A model generated the notes under the pieces. The model made no database searches, had not been told where the DNA came from, and saw only the letters and a program-made list of their open reading frames with translations. A program made the position numbers and the translations under genes. Source: a virus (lineage: Duplodnaviria; Heunggongvirae; Uroviricota; Caudoviricetes). From it: 11,426 nt of DNA. The DNA is taken from the IMG/VR virus record IMGVR_UViG_3300029126_000035; one strand, written 5' to 3'. Shown here in pieces: positions 485-11,287 of this stretch. Each line of letters opens with the position of its first letter. Position 1 is the first letter of the stretch.

Positions 485-1100
485 CCGCCCAGAAGAAGAT
501 ATTTTCACTGGCTGGTATGTCGCCAAAATCCGGCAATATGACAGCAAAGTCTGGCATTAATACAGCAGATACAAGCAAAGTTTATCATTTTCTGGTGGTA
601 GGAGCGGATACCTTAACTATGTCAGAAATTACGGTCGATGGTGTTAGCGTTGAGAAGGTCAGCGGCTGCGCCAGAGAATTTCTGGTCGTAGATCACCTGT
701 TCTGCTCGTGTAGTGACTCCACAAAAACATTCGTCCACGCGCGTGACGTTAACGAAATGAGCGCGATGTACTGTGCTTCTGGTTCTTCCAATAGTGAGTT
801 TTCGGAGTCCATAAAAAAGAGCTTGCCGTTATGCGGCAACACGGTTTATGGTTATAAGGCACCTCATAAAACGGGTGCCGGGATTAGGACCCCGCAGGCA
901 ATCGAGGCGATACATGACGCGCCAGCGTCTTTTTTTGTATCGGCGCACACGCACACCTTATCAATGGTGGGCTGTATGGGGCTGACTTCGGTCAGGCTGG
1001 TTTCCTTGATTGCCAGTAGTCCTAACCCTGTACAGTCCACCGCCAGCGAGCTTAGGACCTCCGGCGGTGGCTATAAACCATCAATCAAGGAGGCTGCCAC
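478..1100 (+). other. stop-free frame with strong RBS, coding status unresolved; structured leader region upstream of the small-gene operon
   Basis: ATG 478 preceded by GGAGG 465-469 (7 nt spacer); frame 1 has no stop from 478 to 1506, but beyond 1101 that frame is rich in rare codons (CTA, TTA, ATA, AGG) while the overlapping frame of 1101-1295 has good codon usage; region 850-1070 contains several stems and complementary motifs. Confidence 0.25.
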
Positions 1101-5535: not shown

Positions 5536-5560
5536 GCTTCTTCATGTGCGTAGAAAAGGT

Positions 5561-5672
5561 GTTGGTTCAGTTGGTTCAGTTGGTTCAATTTGCAAAGAGT
5601 ATTGTTTTGTAAGGATTTTATTCTTTTTATTGAACCAACACTGAACCAACAACACGGTATTTTGAACCAACA
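5561..5672. repeat. iteron array, probable replication origin: 3 direct GTTGGTTCA copies, AT-rich spacer, 3 inverted TGAACCAAC copies
   Basis: Perfect 9-mers at 5561-5569, 5570-5578, 5579-5587 and inverted copies at 5631-5639, 5642-5650, 5664-5672; 43-bp AT-rich spacer at 5588-5630; starts 25 bp after the primase stop. Confidence 0.75.
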
Positions 5673-5767
5673 CAATGTGACTGAATTGATGAGCACAACA
5701 TCTGGCTGGCATTAGAGAGTGTTTTACGAAATCTGAACACCACATCACTGGTTTCAGTGGGAGATTG

Positions 5768-6226
5768 ATGATGAAGATAATCGCAAAGGCTTTTCATCAT
5801 GTATTTGGCAAAGTATCCGATTTGCCATCTGTAATACCGATGAACAACAGAAGGGAGATGCTGCTTGATGTGGTTGTGTTCCCATACATAGACCTTTCTG
5901 AACCAATGAAAGCAACTCTTTTCAGAAAGTATCTTGGCGACTTTAAACGCCGTTTTACAGGCGTTAACGGGATGGTTGATATCTGCTCCATCAGAGATAT
6001 TGTTGAACTTGCAGGGATTAATTTGTGGGGAGAAGCGGCAGCAGCATACAAATGGCTTGAACGCCTGCACTGTGTTTCATTCAGTGACATGAGTGCTGAT
6101 ATCGCTTTAATGGTTCCTCACAAAATCAATATGGTCTTTGCTGGTGGCAATTACACTTATCCATGGAACCAGGAACAAAGAGAGAACAGGAAAGCTCACG
6201 CCATGAAGAGTAATGCGACTCCATAA
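5768..6226 (+). CDS. hypothetical protein (152 aa), AT-rich gene between origin and cargo operon
   Basis: ATG at 5768/5771 preceded by GGGAG 5759-5763; followed by a rho-independent terminator; the antisense 147-aa ORF is Cys/His/Trp-rich and looks spurious. Confidence 0.6.
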   Translation: MMKIIAKAFHHVFGKVSDLPSVIPMNNRREMLLDVVVFPYIDLSEPMKATLFRKYLGDFKRRFTGVNGMVDICSIRDIVELAGINLWGEAAAAYKWLERLHCVSFSDMSADIALMVPHKINMVFAGGNYTYPWNQEQRENRKAHAMKSNATP

Positions 6227-6279
6227 ATATAGTTTTTAGAGTCCATAAAAAAACTGTCAAAACCTGACATACAGAACGA

Positions 6280-6311
6280 TGCCACCAGCTACTGAACGGT
6301 GGCATTTTTTT
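6280..6311 (+). terminator. rho-independent terminator
   Basis: Stem TGCCACC (6280-6286) / GGTGGCA (6298-6304) followed by a T7 run at 6305-6311. Confidence 0.7.
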
Positions 6312-6367
6312 GTGCTATTTGTTTCATATTTTGCAATCACAATGATGAATGTTGCGTTTTATGAAAC

Positions 6368-6391
6368 TATAATGACTGTTGTTTTATACAG
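6368..6391 (+). promoter_or_regulatory. candidate SOS-regulated promoter: -10 TATAAT followed by LexA-box-like CTGT-N8-ACAG
   Basis: TATAAT at 6368-6373; CTGTTGTTTTATACAG at 6376-6391 matches the LexA consensus CTGT-(AT-rich 8)-ACAG; RBS AAGGGGG at 6396-6402 and ATG at 6407; -35 is weak. Confidence 0.5.
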
Positions 6392-6406
6392 TTCTAAGGG
6401 GGCGTT

Positions 6407-6580
6407 ATGGCTATTTCAGTAAAGCCAGTATTGATAAGTGAGAAGCAAATGGAAGCGATAAAGAAAATTCAGGAGGAGCAGCGTAAAAAATCAGAGGTAG
6501 GAGTTGCGCCAACGATCCACGAAATTGCTCGGGGATTAATGGATAAGGCGCTGGCTTACACTTTAACTGGACGTGGGTAA
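6407..6580 (+). CDS. small protein (57 aa), possible ribbon-helix-helix DNA-binding protein
   Basis: Not in the ORF track (under 60 aa) but a clean ATG-to-TAA frame with RBS; N-terminal strand-like VKPVLIS followed by two helical segments fits an RHH layout; first gene after the SOS-box promoter. Confidence 0.5.
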   Translation: MAISVKPVLISEKQMEAIKKIQEEQRKKSEVGVAPTIHEIARGLMDKALAYTLTGRG

Positions 6581-6584
6581 ATTT

Positions 6585-8051
6585 ATGGCTACGTGGCAAC
6601 AGGGTATTAATTCTGGTGGTTTTCTGGCTGGCATCGGTACGCAAAATGAGAATGCGCCAAAGGCAAGCGACATTAACGCAACGCTTGGTCTGATCCGCGA
6701 AAACAATGAACTGGCTCGCTCAGGTGCAAATAACGTTGCTCTGACAGGTCTTCGTGGTCTGGCTGGAGTTGCTGATATTTATAAGCAGCAGCAACAGCAG
6801 GAGCGTAAAGCGGCATTCCAGAAAGGTTATGCAGATGCTTATGCGTCCGGTGACAGGGAGCAGATGCGTAATCTTATTACAGCATTCCCAGAAGAGTTTG
6901 AGGAAGTCCGTAAAGGGATGAGTTATGTCGATGATGCTCAAAGGGATGATTATGGCAATCTGGCGCTCAAAGCACAGGTAGCCTCATCGCTTGGTCCGGG
7001 CGCATTTGGCAGGTTCATGATAGATAATGAGCAGGAGATGCGTCGTTTAGGTATCCCTCCAGAAACTATTGCTGAAATGCAGGTTAATGACCCGCAGGGC
7101 TTCCAGCATTTCGCAGGTAATCTGGCGCTGTTTTCTCTCGGTCATGAGAAGTATTTCGATATCAAAGATCAAATGGAAGGTCGGGATATTGAGCGTGGCA
7201 AGTTGGCAGAGACAATCCGCAGCAATCAGGCCAGCGAAGCACTTCAGGCGAGAGGGCAGGATATTAGCCGAGCAAATGCGTTAACGTCAGCATATGCACC
7301 AACAGCAGCAATGCAGAATTACAATCAGTACGCGCAAATGTTAAAGGTGGATCCAGAGGGGGCGGCGGCATTTGCGGCAGCGGCTGGAATTAATACAAAC
7401 GCCAAAAAATTAATGAGTGTTAGAGAAAACGATGATGGCACTGTCACAAAATACTACACAGACGGAAGTGAAGAGCAGGGAAAACTAAACCAGCCAATAT
7501 CTGGAGATGGGTTTCGTCCAATAGCTTTGCCAACAGCCCAAAAGATCATGGAAAAGTCGCCAGAAGGGGCTAAAAAAGCTGCTGGATTTGCATACAGGGT
7601 TAGGGATGCTCTTGATTCAATGGATACACTGAAAGACCAGCTTAGCCCACAGCGAGTGGCGGTCATTAATAATGCTTTGGGTAATGGGACGCTGGCTAAC
7701 TTAACGCTCAGCCCAACAGAGCAGCAATACGTTGTTAATGCTAATGACGCAATAATGGCAATACTCCGTCAGGAAACAGGGGCAGCTATCGTACCTGCTG
7801 AAATGTCAAAATATTATCAAATGTATTTCCCTCAGCCTGGCGACTCCACAAAAACCATTGATACCAAGCGCCGGAAGATGGAAAACCAGTTCAATTCGCT
7901 GAAAGCTGCTTCTGGTCGAGCTTATGATGCTTTGCGGGTTATTTCAGCAGTTGACAGAGGAACTTCTTCTTCGTCGCAGACATTGCCGCAATCTGAGCAG
8001 GTATCACAGCCAGCAGCCAGCAGTAACTTTTCTTCACTATGGGGTGATTAA
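6585..8051 (+). CDS. hypothetical large helical protein (488 aa), Ala/Gln/Glu-rich, unknown function
   Basis: ATG 6585 lies 4 nt after the stop of the small gene (alternative GTG at 6573); polyQ run KQQQQQ; no P-loop or catalytic motif I recognise; stop overlaps the next start (TAATG). Confidence 0.8.
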   Translation: MATWQQGINSGGFLAGIGTQNENAPKASDINATLGLIRENNELARSGANNVALTGLRGLAGVADIYKQQQQQERKAAFQKGYADAYASGDREQMRNLITAFPEEFEEVRKGMSYVDDAQRDDYGNLALKAQVASSLGPGAFGRFMIDNEQEMRRLGIPPETIAEMQVNDPQGFQHFAGNLALFSLGHEKYFDIKDQMEGRDIERGKLAETIRSNQASEALQARGQDISRANALTSAYAPTAAMQNYNQYAQMLKVDPEGAAAFAAAAGINTNAKKLMSVRENDDGTVTKYYTDGSEEQGKLNQPISGDGFRPIALPTAQKIMEKSPEGAKKAAGFAYRVRDALDSMDTLKDQLSPQRVAVINNALGNGTLANLTLSPTEQQYVVNANDAIMAILRQETGAAIVPAEMSKYYQMYFPQPGDSTKTIDTKRRKMENQFNSLKAASGRAYDALRVISAVDRGTSSSSQTLPQSEQVSQPAASSNFSSLWGD

Positions 8052-10156
8052 TGGCTAAAGCATGGAAAGATGTTATCGCCTCTCCACAGTATCAGGCGTT
8101 AGCACCAGAACAAAAAGCGCAGGCTCAGGAGCAATACTTCAATGAAGTCGTTGCCCCGCAAGCCGGAGAAAGTGTAGAGCAGGCTAAGCAGGCTTTTTAT
8201 GCTGCCTATCCACTACCATCAACGAATGAAATAGACCGATACCAATCAGCAACTCAAAATATTCAACATACATCATCTGATAATTCTCTTGCGTCAGGGT
8301 ATGCAAAGTTAGCTACTCAGCAAAGAGAGGGGCTTGAGCGTTCAGCAGAACAGGGAGCCAGTCTTGGGGCTGCGATGCGCGATGCTATAACAGGCGAAAG
8401 CCGAATGACTCCAGAGATGGAGAGACTGCAAAATGTCGACCTTGCCCCAGAGTTAACCTCACTCAGCATGGATGCTCTAAAAGCTCGATGGTCTCAACTT
8501 TTCGGCTCTGACGCATCTCAGGAAAAGATTCTTCAGAGCATGGGAGCGAAATTAAGGCAGGATGAGAAGGGTAACACTATCGTTTCCCTGCCATCCGGTG
8601 ATTATGCTCTGAACAAGCCGGGTTTATCGCCGCAAGACGTGGCATCGTTTCTGGCTAATGCGCTGGCGTTTACACCAGCGGGCAGGGCCGGAACGGTGCT
8701 GGGGGCCATAGGGAAATCAGCAGCTACAGATTTAGCACTACAGGGAGCCACCAGCCTTGCTGGTGGAGAAGATATTGATCCGTTACAAACGGTAATTTCT
8801 GCTGGCATTGGCGGCATTGGTAAGGGGCTGGAGAATACAGCGAGTGCGGTTTCGAGGGCTGTTCGTGGTGATATGGCACCGGAAGCGAAAGCTGCTGTTG
8901 ATTTTGCATCGGAAAGAAACCTGCCGTTAATGACCAGTGACGTACTGAAAGATAAAAACACTGTGCAGAGTCTGGCCCAGAAAACAGGCGAAAAAATCCC
9001 TTTTTTTGGAACGGGTACGAACAGGTTGAATCAACAACAGGCACGGGAAAATCTGGTCAGAACATATAACGATGGTCTGGGAGGCATTTCAGATAAACAG
9101 CTTTATGAATCTGCGACTAAAGGGCAGCAAAAATTCATTGAGGCCGCAGGAAAGCGATATAACCGCATAATTGACGCTATGGGGGATACCCCTGTCGATC
9201 TCTCAAACACGGTAAAAGCTATCGACAATCAGATTGCCGTGTTAAGCCGCCCGGGCAAATCTCAGGATAGAGCCGCGGTAAAAGTCTTGCAGCAATTTAA
9301 AGACGATATCACCAGCGGACCAAATGACCTGCGTCTGGCGAGAGAAAACAGAACTGACCTTCGAAAGCGGTTCATGAATTCAAACGAGACAGTTGATAAA
9401 GACACGCTCCAGAAAGCCAGCGATATTGTCTACAAGGCATATACGCTGGATATGAGAAGGGCAGTAGCCCAGAAACTGGGTTCAGAAGAAGCAGCCAATA
9501 TGGCAAGGGTCGATCGCTCATGGTCTAAATTCAATGACATGATGGGAAGAACGCGCGTTCAGAAGGCAATAGCCAGCGGCAAGGCTACGCCTGAGGATGT
9601 AACAAAACTCGTTTTTAGCCAAAGCTCATCAGAACGTTCTCAGCTTTACAGGCTTCTGGATGACAACGGCAGGCAGAACGCACGGGCAGCCATAATACAG
9701 AATGCTGTAGATAAGGCGACTGATTCGGCGGGGAATATCAGCGTTGAGAAGTTTATTAACACGCTACACCGGAACAGAAAGCAATCCGCAACGTTCTTTA
9801 AGGGCGTGCACGGAAAGGAACTGGACGGCATTATTAAATACCTCAACGATACCAGACAGGCGGCAAAGGTTGACGGTCAGAAATTAAACAGCCAGAAACT
9901 TTATGGCCTGCTGGTTGGTGGAGGCGCTATAAATGCGGCAGTTCTGGCGGGGATGCTGAAAACGGCTGCGTTTGTTGTTCCTGCTGCAGGTGCCGTAGGC
10001 GGAGCAGCGAAGGCATACGAAAGCCCTGTTATACGAAATGCCTTGTTACGTCTGGCAAATACGCCAAAAGGTAGCACAGCATATGACAGAGCGATCAGTA
10101 CGGTCACACAATCACTGACCACAGCAGCACAAGCATCGCAAAAGGAAGCTCAATAA
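8051..10156 (+). CDS. hypothetical large protein (701 aa) with C-terminal Gly/Ala-rich hydrophobic hairpin, unknown function
   Basis: ATG 8051 overlaps upstream stop; Ala/Gln/Lys-rich helical composition; hydrophobic segment LYGLLVGGGAINAAVLAGMLKTAAFVVPAAGAVGGAA at residues ~616-656 (nt 9896-10018); no canonical Walker A. Confidence 0.85.
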   Translation: MAKAWKDVIASPQYQALAPEQKAQAQEQYFNEVVAPQAGESVEQAKQAFYAAYPLPSTNEIDRYQSATQNIQHTSSDNSLASGYAKLATQQREGLERSAEQGASLGAAMRDAITGESRMTPEMERLQNVDLAPELTSLSMDALKARWSQLFGSDASQEKILQSMGAKLRQDEKGNTIVSLPSGDYALNKPGLSPQDVASFLANALAFTPAGRAGTVLGAIGKSAATDLALQGATSLAGGEDIDPLQTVISAGIGGIGKGLENTASAVSRAVRGDMAPEAKAAVDFASERNLPLMTSDVLKDKNTVQSLAQKTGEKIPFFGTGTNRLNQQQARENLVRTYNDGLGGISDKQLYESATKGQQKFIEAAGKRYNRIIDAMGDTPVDLSNTVKAIDNQIAVLSRPGKSQDRAAVKVLQQFKDDITSGPNDLRLARENRTDLRKRFMNSNETVDKDTLQKASDIVYKAYTLDMRRAVAQKLGSEEAANMARVDRSWSKFNDMMGRTRVQKAIASGKATPEDVTKLVFSQSSSERSQLYRLLDDNGRQNARAAIIQNAVDKATDSAGNISVEKFINTLHRNRKQSATFFKGVHGKELDGIIKYLNDTRQAAKVDGQKLNSQKLYGLLVGGGAINAAVLAGMLKTAAFVVPAAGAVGGAAKAYESPVIRNALLRLANTPKGSTAYDRAISTVTQSLTTAAQASQKEAQ

Positions 10157-10218
10157 CAGATGGCCATGGATGGTTGGTTATAATAGTAATTAGTATTTTT
10201 TTCAAATAGTTATGAACA

Positions 10219-10617
10219 TTAACACTTGCCTTTAACATTGCCGACAAATGAGCCTGTAAATGAGCCTATATCAGATCGACTAATTGTTCGTGTATGGATC
10301 ACTTTTCCGTCATTTGAGATTGCCCATGTGACAAGCGTCAGTTGACCATCTCGATAGCTTCTTCCCATCATGGCATTCGGAGATAGCGGGTAATAATCAA
10401 TACCTCCACCTATACCATCTTTTGCCAAGATAAGATCCGCCTTCTCTTTACTTATTACCAAATGAAAGGTATCTGGTATAGATGATAACTTATAGTTATA
10501 CCCATCTGAACTTGAGGCTTCTTGTCCTTTCAGATCACCAATAATCCAGCATTCAGCGTTCGCTCCAAAAGAAGCAAATAATAAACCGGAGACAACCAAT
10601 CGCTTCAATTGATTCAC
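10219..10617 (-). CDS. small Sec-exported (periplasmic) protein, mature ~111 aa, with N- and C-terminal cysteines
   Basis: GTG start at 10617 preceded by AGGGAGG; signal peptide MNQLKRLVVSGLLFASFGANA with ANA-E cleavage motif; no transmembrane stretch in mature part; the longer in-frame ORF up to 10905 is a probable shadow. Confidence 0.65.
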   Translation of the reverse strand: MNQLKRLVVSGLLFASFGANAECWIIGDLKGQEASSSDGYNYKLSSIPDTFHLVISKEKADLILAKDGIGGGIDYYPLSPNAMMGRSYRDGQLTLVTWAISNDGKVIHTRTISRSDIGSFTGSFVGNVKGKC

Positions 10618-11086
10618 ACCAACCCTCCCTTTAGCGTTGTTTAGAATGGCAATCATCATATATCCAAGACATGGCATTTGGTACATAGCTTGGGTCGGGA
10701 TTTCAAATCCGCCCCCGTTGATGGGGTCGTTACAGTACGCGCATATCCGCTTTATGTGAAACAGGAAGATTTTTCTGATATCACTGCCACAGCAAAACAC
10801 CAATTTCGAGACAAGTACGCGCACGATGGAGGGGAGTACCATAAAACTGTTCTCTACATAAGTCAGAGTGGTGGCGATGTGTTGATTATCGGCGTATATG
10901 CGCACAGGACGCGCTATGACAATGTTTTATGCGGGTACACCAATCACATGTATCTGGTGTGATAAATCGCGTTACATGACATCTCATGTTGTGCTGGTGG
11001 TTATCACGACGTTCTGAATCTGGCCTTTGCCTGATATTTTGCGACAAGTACGCGCGCGTAGCATCGACAGCATACACATTGGATAT

Positions 11087-11287
11087 TCATTTTGTGACCA
11101 ATGCGATAAGTAGCGGGATAAGAATTGATAAAATCAACAGGACGATGATCCACTTTTGATTCTCGTCCATCTTATCTGCTAGGCGACGCTCCATTCCGTG
11201 CATATCACCGCGAATGGCAATCATCTCATTGCGAACATCCGAGAAGTGGTTGGCTTGATGTTCAATGTGTGGCGTTCTGCCTTTCAT
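11087..11287 (-). CDS. small C-terminally anchored membrane protein (66 aa), topology like XhlA-type phage proteins
   Basis: ATG 11285-11287 with GAGGA RBS upstream on minus strand; polar/charged N-terminal half then a single hydrophobic helix WIIVLLILSILIPLLIALV at the C-terminus. Confidence 0.55.
   Translation of the reverse strand: MKGRTPHIEHQANHFSDVRNEMIAIRGDMHGMERRLADKMDENQKWIIVLLILSILIPLLIALVTK

What the first reader, a model, noticed from the sequence alone, without database searches (positions are those of the whole stretch)
10219..10617. Convergent gene for a small exported protein directly after the operon: possible partner or immunity factor
The true start is most likely GTG 10617 (RBS AGGGAGG), giving a textbook signal peptide; the 288-nt in-frame extension to 10905 looks non-coding. 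The mature ~111-aa protein has no membrane span, begins with Cys (ECW...) and ends with Cys (...KGKC), suggesting a disulfide-stapled periplasmic domain. A periplasmic protein placed convergently 62 bp beyond a putative membrane-active effector is the kind of arrangement seen for periplasmic immunity or inhibitor proteins. Repeat AAATGAGCCT occurs twice at 10244-10266.
Basis: partly seen in the sequence, partly recalled or inferred. Interest (0 to 1): 0.5.

Follow-up and report, generated by a model that had tools for sequence, protein, structure and literature searches.

The report
Exported Hex-family protein in sieA slot
The small gene is real and encodes an exported beta-barrel protein related to phage 434 Hex, sitting in a swappable slot of a phage-satellite island that in other E. 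coli strains holds a SieA-like phage-exclusion gene, so it is most likely a phage-exclusion factor, not an immunity partner of its neighbour.

Summary
The ORF at 10219-10617 (-) is real. The product has a 21-residue signal peptide (ANA|ECW) and a 111-residue mature part. AlphaFold2 (pLDDT 92) predicts a small soluble eight-stranded beta-barrel. Its two family-conserved cysteines lie at mature position 2 and at the C-terminus.

It belongs to a small family (PHROG 2651, no Pfam, NCBIfam or PADLOC model) that includes phage 434 Hex and Sf6 gp38. The "operon" next door is not a toxin system. It encodes P22-type DNA-ejection proteins gp20 and gp16, inside an EcCIMP1-like phage-inducible island at tRNA-Thr.

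The gene is not a fixed partner of gp16. Most relatives sit after 434-type cI repressors, including in siphophages with no gp16. In E. coli the conserved leader occurs in 545 genomes but this gene in only 126. A 116-aa membrane protein (229 genomes) or a SieA-like protein (103) replaces it elsewhere.

Best reading: a periplasmic superinfection-exclusion cargo in the sieA slot. The function is inferred, not shown. It is a new member of a known kind, of moderate interest.

The parts
10219..10617 (-). CDS of the Hex-family exported protein (132 aa precursor, GTG start, TAA stop at 10219-10221)
   Evidence: ORF and sequence. phrog_2651 at 1.3e-22 over residues 17-132. tblastn to 434 Hex, Sf6 gp38 and Emek orf129 at 30-33% identity, E 1e-11 to 5e-15, 95-98% coverage. 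40 clusters found by exhaustive HMMER.
10555..10617 (-). Signal peptide coding part (21 codons, MNQLKRLVVSGLLFASFGANA, predicted cleavage ANA|ECW)
   Evidence: Heuristic n/h/c-region analysis; 32 of 33 family members obey the -3/-1 rule at the same aligned position. Modelled as a separate N-terminal helix 3-18. No lipobox is present.
10222..10554 (-). Mature domain, 111 aa, predicted soluble 8-stranded beta-barrel. Cys23 and Cys132 lie in the first and last strands.
10624..10630 (-). Shine-Dalgarno AGGGAGG, 6 nt before the GTG
   Evidence: Read from the sequence. Conserved in the islands carrying the Hex-like gene or the 116-aa membrane-protein gene; in the SieA-like islands it reads AAAGG--GGG with 2 nt missing.
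10618..11085 (-). Conserved non-coding leader upstream of the cassette. It contains GCGCGTACT three times (10734, 10814, 11047).
   Evidence: Present in 545 of 5426 complete E. coli genomes at 90-100% identity. Homology ends at the start codon. A 54-nt indel in relatives breaks the ORFs on both strands. Motif count. No Rfam hit and no consensus sigma-70 promoter on the - strand of the leader.
10157..10218 (.). 62-nt AT-rich spacer between the convergent stop codons. The downstream cassette boundary lies near CCATCCATGG.
   Evidence: GC 29%. No terminator-like hairpin found. Homology between cassette types resumes here.
10246..10269 (-). 12-nt in-frame tandem (AAATGAGCCTGT/AAATGAGCCTAT on + strand) encoding GSFT-GSFV
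   Evidence: alignment
8051..10156 (+). Context: P22 gp16-family DNA-ejection (E) protein, 701 aa
   Evidence: phrog_770 'DNA transfer protein' 2.4e-155. 29% identity, E 7e-47, to Emek gp16 homologue. RefSeq names for close relatives: 'P22-gp16 family phage DNA ejection protein' and 'injection protein'.
6573..8051 (+). Context: P22 gp20-family ejection protein, 492 aa
   Evidence: Pfam Inj_translocase 1.5e-84; phrog_917 1.1e-143

Best explanation
The gene encodes a Sec-exported protein of the 434 Hex / Sf6 gp38 family. Its 21-residue signal peptide is removed after Ala21. The 111-residue mature part folds in the periplasm into a small soluble eight-stranded beta-barrel, whose first and last strands are probably tied by a Cys23-Cys132 disulfide.

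It is an accessory (moron-type) cargo of an EcCIMP1-like phage-inducible chromosomal island. It occupies the slot just after the P22-type ejection-protein genes, the slot where P22 carries sieA. It lies on the opposite strand, behind its own conserved leader.

I infer that it is made by the resident island and protects the cell from superinfecting phages, most plausibly P22-like podophages. The likely action is in the periplasm, at the stage when the ejection proteins (gp7/gp20/gp16) build the DNA conduit.

Shown here: the gene, its start, family membership, the export signal and Cys pattern (by sequence rules), the fold (predicted) and the allelic cassette structure. Inferred: expression from the resident island, the disulfide, the exclusion function and its target.

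The confidence of 0.55 is for the exclusion function. That the protein is an exported Hex-family barrel I put at about 0.9.
For: 1. Family: phrog_2651 at 1.3e-22. There is full-length similarity to 434 Hex, Sf6 gp38 and Emek orf129.

2. Published genetics: lambda-imm434 lysogens of Salmonella exclude P22 and hex- lysogens do not. This work of Susskind and Botstein (1980) is known here only as cited in PMC3564112. hex is transcribed from PRM in lysogens.

3. Export features hold across the family, and the model is confident.

4. Allelism with sieA: one leader, present in 545 genomes, is followed by one of three cassettes. These are this gene (126 genomes), a 116-aa polytopic membrane protein (229 genomes), or a 203-aa membrane protein (103 genomes). 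The last one hits phrog_7745 'SieA-like' at 4.4e-4 and carries RYPGEA, matching the SieA motif FxRYPxEAxxFNK (PMC10883804). The junction is exactly at the GTG.

5. The same convergent position, about 10-60 nt after a gp16 homologue, recurs in four divergent lineages: the window type, Emek type, L010-L012 and P0008.

6. SieA is known to block the gp16/gp20 conduit of P22-like phages (PMC10883804).

7. Other family contexts are classic moron or defence spots: after cI, beside RexAB, and between lysis and terminase genes. One member lies in an array of small co-directional genes that looks like an integron cassette array, which was not checked.

8. The cassette GC is 40%, against 46-49% in the flanks.

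9. The island class is reported to add superinfection immunity against its P22-like helper Kapi1, with no known defence system found (PMC11773190).
Against: - No experiment exists on this protein, and none of the tools can test exclusion.
- The only biochemistry on a family member assigns Hex a cytoplasmic role: blocking RecA-stimulated cleavage of the 434 and P22 repressors. A signal-less fragment partly complemented hex- (PMC3564112).
- The mechanism of P22 exclusion by Hex is unknown, and I could not read the 1980 paper.
- The published EcCIMP1 of strain MP1 lacks this gene, so its phenotype cannot be credited to it.
- The SieA-like assignment of the allelic cassette rests on a weak HMM hit plus a short motif.
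- No promoter was recognised in the leader.
- Some distant family members are chromosomal with no phage context.
- Signal peptide prediction was heuristic.
Confidence: 0.55

Rival explanations
1. Cognate partner or immunity protein of the adjacent 701-aa protein: it neutralises that protein's membrane activity in the producing cell.
For: The convergent position directly after a gp16 homologue recurs in four lineages. gp16-family proteins act on membranes during DNA delivery (PMC10883804).
Against: - Most family members are unlinked to gp16: about 63 of 80 viral loci sit after cI.
- A member occurs in siphophage HK446, whose structural gene region has no annotated P22-type ejection-protein genes.
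- Only 126 of 300 genomes with the same gp20/gp16 pair carry the gene.
- A 94%-identical gp16 is paired with a different cassette.
- gp16 is a packaged virion protein, not a secreted toxin.
Confidence: 0.04
2. Repressor-protection factor as published for 434 Hex: a cytoplasmic protein that hinders RecA-stimulated autocleavage of a LexA-like repressor and so stabilises the resident element or its helper prophage.
For: PMC3564112 reports a 30-fold higher, RecA-dependent spontaneous induction in hex-. The sHex fragment inhibited cleavage of 434 and P22 repressors in vitro. The family is tightly linked to 434-type cI in most phages.
Against: - All members carry a signal peptide and a conserved Cys pair typical of periplasmic proteins.
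- Here, and in the P22-like phages, the gene is not next to any LexA-like repressor.
- It is interchangeable with membrane proteins, including a SieA-like one.
- Full-length Hex stopped growth when overexpressed.
- The purified fragment began at E43, which is exactly the predicted signal-peptidase site ANS|ECW. That suggests the native protein is processed for export.
Confidence: 0.1
3. A periplasmic host-fitness factor unrelated to phage exclusion. Examples: an inhibitor of lysozymes or lytic transglycosylases (MliC/PliC-like), or a small-ligand binding calycin-type barrel.
Against: - No Pfam hit for any of 32 members, so no match to any Pfam inhibitor family.
- The contexts are overwhelmingly prophage moron slots.
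- A family member has a genetic exclusion phenotype.
Confidence: 0.2
4. An outer-membrane beta-barrel (one phage record labels a homologue 'PagP') that masks or alters a receptor.
Against: - The mature protein has only 111 aa.
- Several strands have 5-6 residues, too short to span a membrane.
- It is hydrophilic, GRAVY -0.22 with 22% charged residues.
- It ends in Gly-Lys-Cys rather than an aromatic beta-signal, and has a conserved Cys pair.
Confidence: 0.03

Closest known systems
Phage 434 Hex ('heterologous exclusion', annotated 'repressor protection protein') and Shigella phage Sf6 gp38 (PHROG 2651)
   Same: Homologous over the full length, at about 30% identity. They share length, signal peptide, x-C-W start of the mature protein, the FVGxVxGxC end and the LSxN and (E)TW motifs. 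All are carried by temperate elements of enterobacteria as non-essential cargo.
   Different: Hex and gp38 lie directly after the cI repressor, on the PRM transcript. This gene lies after the ejection-protein genes of a satellite island, behind its own leader. The published biochemical role of Hex (anti-RecA, cytoplasmic) does not fit the export features and was not tested for this protein.
P22 SieA superinfection-exclusion protein (Leavitt et al. 2024, PMC10883804)
   Same: Same genomic slot, just after gene 16. In sister islands a SieA-like gene is the direct allelic alternative behind the same leader and start codon. It is expected to act in the cell envelope.
   Different: There is no sequence or structural relation. 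[quoted passage not shown] This protein is a soluble exported barrel without membrane spans.
Exported or surface exclusion proteins of other phages: P1 Sim (processed periplasmic protein), T4 Sp (periplasmic inhibitor of the gp5 lysozyme) and Streptococcus phage TP-J34 Ltp (surface lipoprotein). Named from my own knowledge, except Ltp, which also appeared.
   Same: The working principle I propose: a small protein placed outside the cytoplasmic membrane by a resident phage that stops DNA entry of an incoming phage.
   Different: No homology was tested or expected, and the folds differ (Sp and Ltp are helical). The resemblance is recalled from memory and is not a test.
MliC/PliC/PhiA periplasmic lysozyme inhibitors
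   Different: It ranks only 44th among generic barrels. There is no sequence similarity and no Pfam match.

Membership tests
434 Hex / Sf6 gp38 family (PHROG 2651) | Significant full-length sequence similarity to family members | tested here: met
   phrog_2651 at 1.3e-22, profile positions 1-116 of 117. tblastn gives 95-98% coverage at E 1e-11 to 5e-15. phmmer finds 40 clusters.
434 Hex / Sf6 gp38 family (PHROG 2651) | N-terminal signal peptide, Cys at mature position 2 and Cys at or near the C-terminus | tested here: met
   Alignments A1 and A2. Heuristic signal-peptide check passes in 32 of 33 members.
434 Hex / Sf6 gp38 family (PHROG 2651) | Excludes a heterologous phage (P22) when expressed from the resident element | not testable with these tools
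   Known only for 434 Hex, through PMC3564112 citing Susskind and Botstein 1980.
434 Hex / Sf6 gp38 family (PHROG 2651) | Co-transcribed with the cI repressor from PRM | tested here: not met
   Here the gene follows gp16 on the opposite strand, with no repressor nearby. This is a property of the 434 subgroup, not of the whole family.
P22 SieA | Integral inner-membrane protein with 3-4 transmembrane helices | tested here: not met
   The mature protein is hydrophilic and all-beta.
P22 SieA | Conserved motif FxRYPxEAxxFNK; match to the SieA-like profile | tested here: not met
   There is no phrog_7745 hit for this protein. The motif and the hit are found in the alternative cassette instead.
P22 SieA | Gene located just downstream of gene 16 of a P22-type ejection module | tested here: met
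   slot definition from PMC10883804.
Toxin/effector with cognate immunity protein | Strict co-occurrence of the two genes | tested here: not met
   126 versus 300 genomes. A 94%-identical gp16 is paired with another cassette. Most family members are far from any gp16.
Toxin/effector with cognate immunity protein | The neighbour is a toxin or effector | tested here: not met
   It is a P22 gp16-family virion ejection protein.
MliC/PliC lysozyme inhibitors | Sequence or profile match to the family | tested here: not met
   No Pfam hit for the protein or for any of 32 relatives.
MliC/PliC lysozyme inhibitors | Eight-stranded barrel fold specifically closest to MliC/PliC | tested here: inconclusive
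Outer-membrane 8-stranded barrels (PagP/OmpX/NspA type) | Membrane-spanning strands, C-terminal aromatic beta-signal | tested here: not met
   Strands of 5-6 residues, a C-terminus of ...KGKC and a hydrophilic composition.

The most novel reading that the evidence does not exclude
Hex-family proteins are a distinct, soluble periplasmic class of superinfection-exclusion factor. They jam the P22-type ejection-protein conduit (gp7/gp20/gp16) from the periplasmic side and are functionally interchangeable with the membrane protein SieA. Satellites of the EcCIMP1 type swap such cassettes behind one shared leader. The published cytoplasmic anti-RecA role of Hex would then be secondary or an artefact of expressing a signal-less fragment.
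Probability: 0.35. Interest if true: 0.6.

Novelty: new member of a known kind. Interest (0 to 1): 0.45.

Why it matters
Three things follow if the reading holds.

1. It gives a concrete candidate for envelope-level phage exclusion carried by a very common E. coli satellite. The leader is in about 10% of complete genomes. The one studied member of this island class shows unexplained superinfection immunity against its P22-like helper.

2. It shows that the only characterised relative, 434 Hex, has all the marks of an exported protein. This is not mentioned in the paper that assigned it a cytoplasmic role, so that function deserves re-examination.

3. The three-way cassette exchange at a fixed start codon is a clean natural experiment. 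It allows different exclusion proteins to be compared against the same ejection machinery.

Tried and rejected
- Longer ORFs (228 aa from 10905; PGAP's 155 aa from ATG 10686; the 145-207 aa calls in databases) are rejected. Homologues lack the extension, the cassette junction is at the GTG, and a 54-nt indel breaks the extension in relatives.
- The + strand ORF 10678-10962 (94 aa) in the leader has no family hit and is broken by the same indel, so it is rejected as a gene.
- Pfam, NCBIfam, PADLOC and PDB sequence searches found nothing for the protein.
- Foldseek against PDB and against viral models gave only generic barrels or unnamed proteins. The AlphaFold database library was not available.
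- The genome-contig scan with a family alignment confirmed no locus. The full alignment was too divergent to derive patterns.
- The word-indexed protein search recovered few relatives even with a profile. The exhaustive HMMER search was needed.
- I asked whether the published EcCIMP1 phenotype could be pinned on this gene. It cannot: strain MP1's island lacks it and has a different ejection module followed by a lipoprotein.
- No terminator was found between the convergent genes, and no consensus promoter in the leader.
- Rfam found no RNA family in the leader.

Full report
**The observation.** The - strand ORF ends with TAA at 10219-10221. It can start at GTG 10615-10617, preceded by AGGGAGG at 10624-10630 with a 6-nt spacer. 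Two independent lines fix this start.

- Homologues from phages Emek, 434 and Sf6 begin within three residues of it and lack any extension.
- In sister islands the upstream DNA is virtually identical up to and including the GTG. It then diverges completely into unrelated coding sequences, and homology resumes near the end of the gp16 gene.

The longer starts are therefore wrong. These are PGAP's 155 aa from ATG 10686 and the 145-207 aa database calls. The 288-nt in-frame extension is non-coding: relatives carry a 54-nt insertion there that breaks the long ORFs on both strands.

The precursor begins MNQLKRLVVSGLLFASFGANA|ECW. By simple n/h/c-region rules this is a type I signal peptide without a lipobox. 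The same pattern holds at the same aligned position in 32 of 33 relatives. The mature protein has 111 residues and is hydrophilic. It has Cys at position 2 and as its last residue, and both are conserved across the family. The spacing to the 701-aa gene is 62 nt. The short repeat is a 12-nt in-frame tandem at 10246-10269, slightly off the stated coordinates.

**What the protein is.** There is no Pfam, NCBIfam, PADLOC or PDB sequence match. It matches PHROG 2651 (unknown function) at 1.3e-22. It is about 30-33% identical over its full length to phage 434 Hex (annotated "repressor protection protein"), Sf6 gp38, Emek orf129 and relatives in HK446, HK633 and Sf101.

An exhaustive HMMER scan of 1.84 billion representatives finds only 40 clusters. 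Nearly all are 126-137 aa proteins with the same architecture. This is a small, patchy family, not a housekeeping protein.

Several features argue for a soluble periplasmic barrel and against an outer-membrane one: short strands, hydrophilic composition, a Cys pair and no aromatic C-terminus. The first and last strands pair antiparallel, which would bring the two cysteines together. The disulfide is an inference.

**What the neighbourhood is.** The "operon" encodes P22-type ejection proteins. The 492-aa product hits Pfam Inj_translocase (gp20) at 1.5e-84. The 701-aa product hits phrog_770 "DNA transfer protein" at 2.4e-155 and aligns with the Emek gp16 homologue (29% identity, E 7e-47).

The window is part of an island at tRNA-Thr between proA and yagU. 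It carries an integrase, AlpA-type regulators, an antirepressor, ash, a 918-aa primase, and Abi and PerC genes. Its left part is 92-99% identical to EcCIMP1 of E. coli MP1. EcCIMP1 is a phage-inducible chromosomal island mobilised by the P22-like phage Kapi1. It adds superinfection immunity against that phage, with no recognised defence system (PMC11773190).

- Of 80 viral loci carrying a family member, about 63 have it directly after a 434-type cI repressor, co-directional (the rex position of lambda).
- About 12 have it convergent after a gp16 homologue, and 3 lie elsewhere.
- HK446, which carries a member, is an HK97-like siphophage. Its structural gene region has a tape measure and no annotated P22-type ejection-protein genes.
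- Other members are antisense inserts in a siphophage tail operon (once beside RexAB), or lie between lysis and terminase genes. One is in an array of small co-directional genes that looks integron-like, which I did not check, and others are in chromosomal spots.
- Within complete E. coli genomes the gp20+gp16 pair is present (at least 80% coverage) in 300 genomes but this gene in only 126.

**The cassette slot.** The 468-nt leader upstream of the gene occurs in 545 of 5426 complete E. coli genomes. Behind it, starting at the same GTG, lie alternative genes:

- this Hex-like gene, in 126 genomes;
- a 116-aa polytopic membrane protein, in 229 genomes;
- a 203-aa polytopic membrane protein, in 103 genomes.

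The third carries ...NRYPGEARRARK... and hits phrog_7745 "superinfection exclusion SieA-like" at 4.4e-4. Leavitt et al. (PMC10883804) report FxRYPxEAxxFNK as the conserved SieA motif. They also report that sieA always lies between genes 16 and 9, and that SieA blocks DNA injection through the gp16/gp20 conduit. A gp16 that is 94% identical to the window's is followed by this SieA-like cassette.

The same convergent placement of a Hex-family gene right after gp16 recurs in four divergent lineages. The gene's GC content (40%) is lower than its flanks (46-49%). The slot is thus the sieA slot, and this gene is one of its interchangeable cargos.

**Mechanism.** I commit to a periplasmic superinfection-exclusion factor made by the resident island. 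It probably acts on P22-like phages at the stage of conduit assembly. Support comes from the following:

- the genetic phenotype that gave Hex its name: P22 is excluded by lambda-imm434 lysogens of Salmonella and the exclusion is lost in hex- (cited in PMC3564112);
- expression of hex in lysogens;
- the allelism with a SieA-like gene;
- the export features.

The exclusion function and the target are inferred. The main contrary datum is the report that Hex, as a signal-less fragment, blocks RecA-stimulated cleavage of the 434 and P22 repressors. That paper does not mention a signal sequence. The purified fragment began at Glu43 of their 158-aa ORF. This is exactly the residue after the predicted cleavage site ANS|ECW. 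Full-length Hex also arrested growth when overexpressed. I read both as hints of export, but this is my inference. MP1's own EcCIMP1 lacks the gene and has a different ejection module followed by a lipoprotein, so its phenotype cannot be assigned to this gene.

**Comparison and verdict.** The protein is a member of the Hex/gp38 family by sequence and architecture. It is not a SieA homologue, not an MliC/PliC member, not an outer-membrane barrel and not a cognate immunity protein. It may work like SieA, P1 Sim or T4 Sp, that is by exclusion from outside the cytoplasm, but that is analogy only.

It is a new member of a known but poorly understood kind. Interest is moderate. The gene itself is ordinary moron cargo. 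However, the evidence that the Hex family is exported, and the three-way cassette exchange with a SieA-like gene in a very common satellite, open direct experiments.

Noticed in passing
window 859-935 and 960-1047 (+): Rfam gathering-level matches to isrK Hfq-binding RNA (63 bits) and C4 antisense RNA (80 bits). Both lie inside the long ORF that PGAP calls 'ash family protein' (478-1506). This suggests a P1/P7-type antisense immunity module in the island's regulatory region.
   Followed up: no
window 10618-11085 (-): The 468-nt leader is conserved in 545 complete E. coli genomes, yet no promoter, terminator or Rfam family was recognised in it. It holds GCGCGTACT three times. Relatives have an extra 54 nt carrying a fourth copy-like element and a hairpin, GTTGCAAAA..TTTTTGCAAC. 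Its function is unexplained.
   Followed up: partly
window 11087-11287 (-): A 66-aa ORF with a C-terminal hydrophobic anchor lies just upstream of the leader on the same strand (phrog_6324 at 3.3e-15; weak holin-like hit). It is annotated as a 73-aa hypothetical protein in some genomes and left unannotated in others.
   Followed up: no
window 5536-8051; L085 7553-10284; L099 8198-10827: The island carries helper-type virion ejection genes in varying completeness. The window has gp20 and gp16 homologues only. Sister islands also have gp14 (DUF2824) and gp7 homologues. MP1's EcCIMP1 has a different 908-aa ejection protein with a lytic transglycosylase domain. It is not explained why a satellite keeps its own ejection proteins.
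   Followed up: partly
L099 4632-5330 (E. coli MP1 EcCIMP1): In the published EcCIMP1 the gene after the ejection module is a co-directional 232-aa predicted lipoprotein (LLAGC lipobox) with no family match. This is another envelope protein in the same region, and a possible candidate for the reported superinfection immunity.
   Followed up: partly
L003 2938-3417 (phage 434): The experimentally purified 'sHex' fragment of Shkilnyj et al. starts at Glu43 of their 158-aa ORF. This coincides with the predicted signal-peptidase cleavage site (ANS|ECW) of the 134-aa protein.
   Followed up: partly
proteins P0007, P0024, P0025, P0032, P0034: Several very long proteins (700-2342 aa) match parts of the query in 4-12 separate stretches. 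This could mean tandem arrays of a related barrel module, or it could be compositional noise.
   Followed up: no
L091 6001-7822: A family member sits antisense in a siphophage tail operon, just before the tape-measure gene and next to RexA/RexB genes. This is another apparent defence hotspot.
   Followed up: no
L001 21337-22314 (just beyond the window's right end): An Abi-family gene (phrog_2158 abortive infection, 1.6e-56) follows the leader region. The accessory end of the island therefore stacks several likely anti-phage genes.
   Followed up: no
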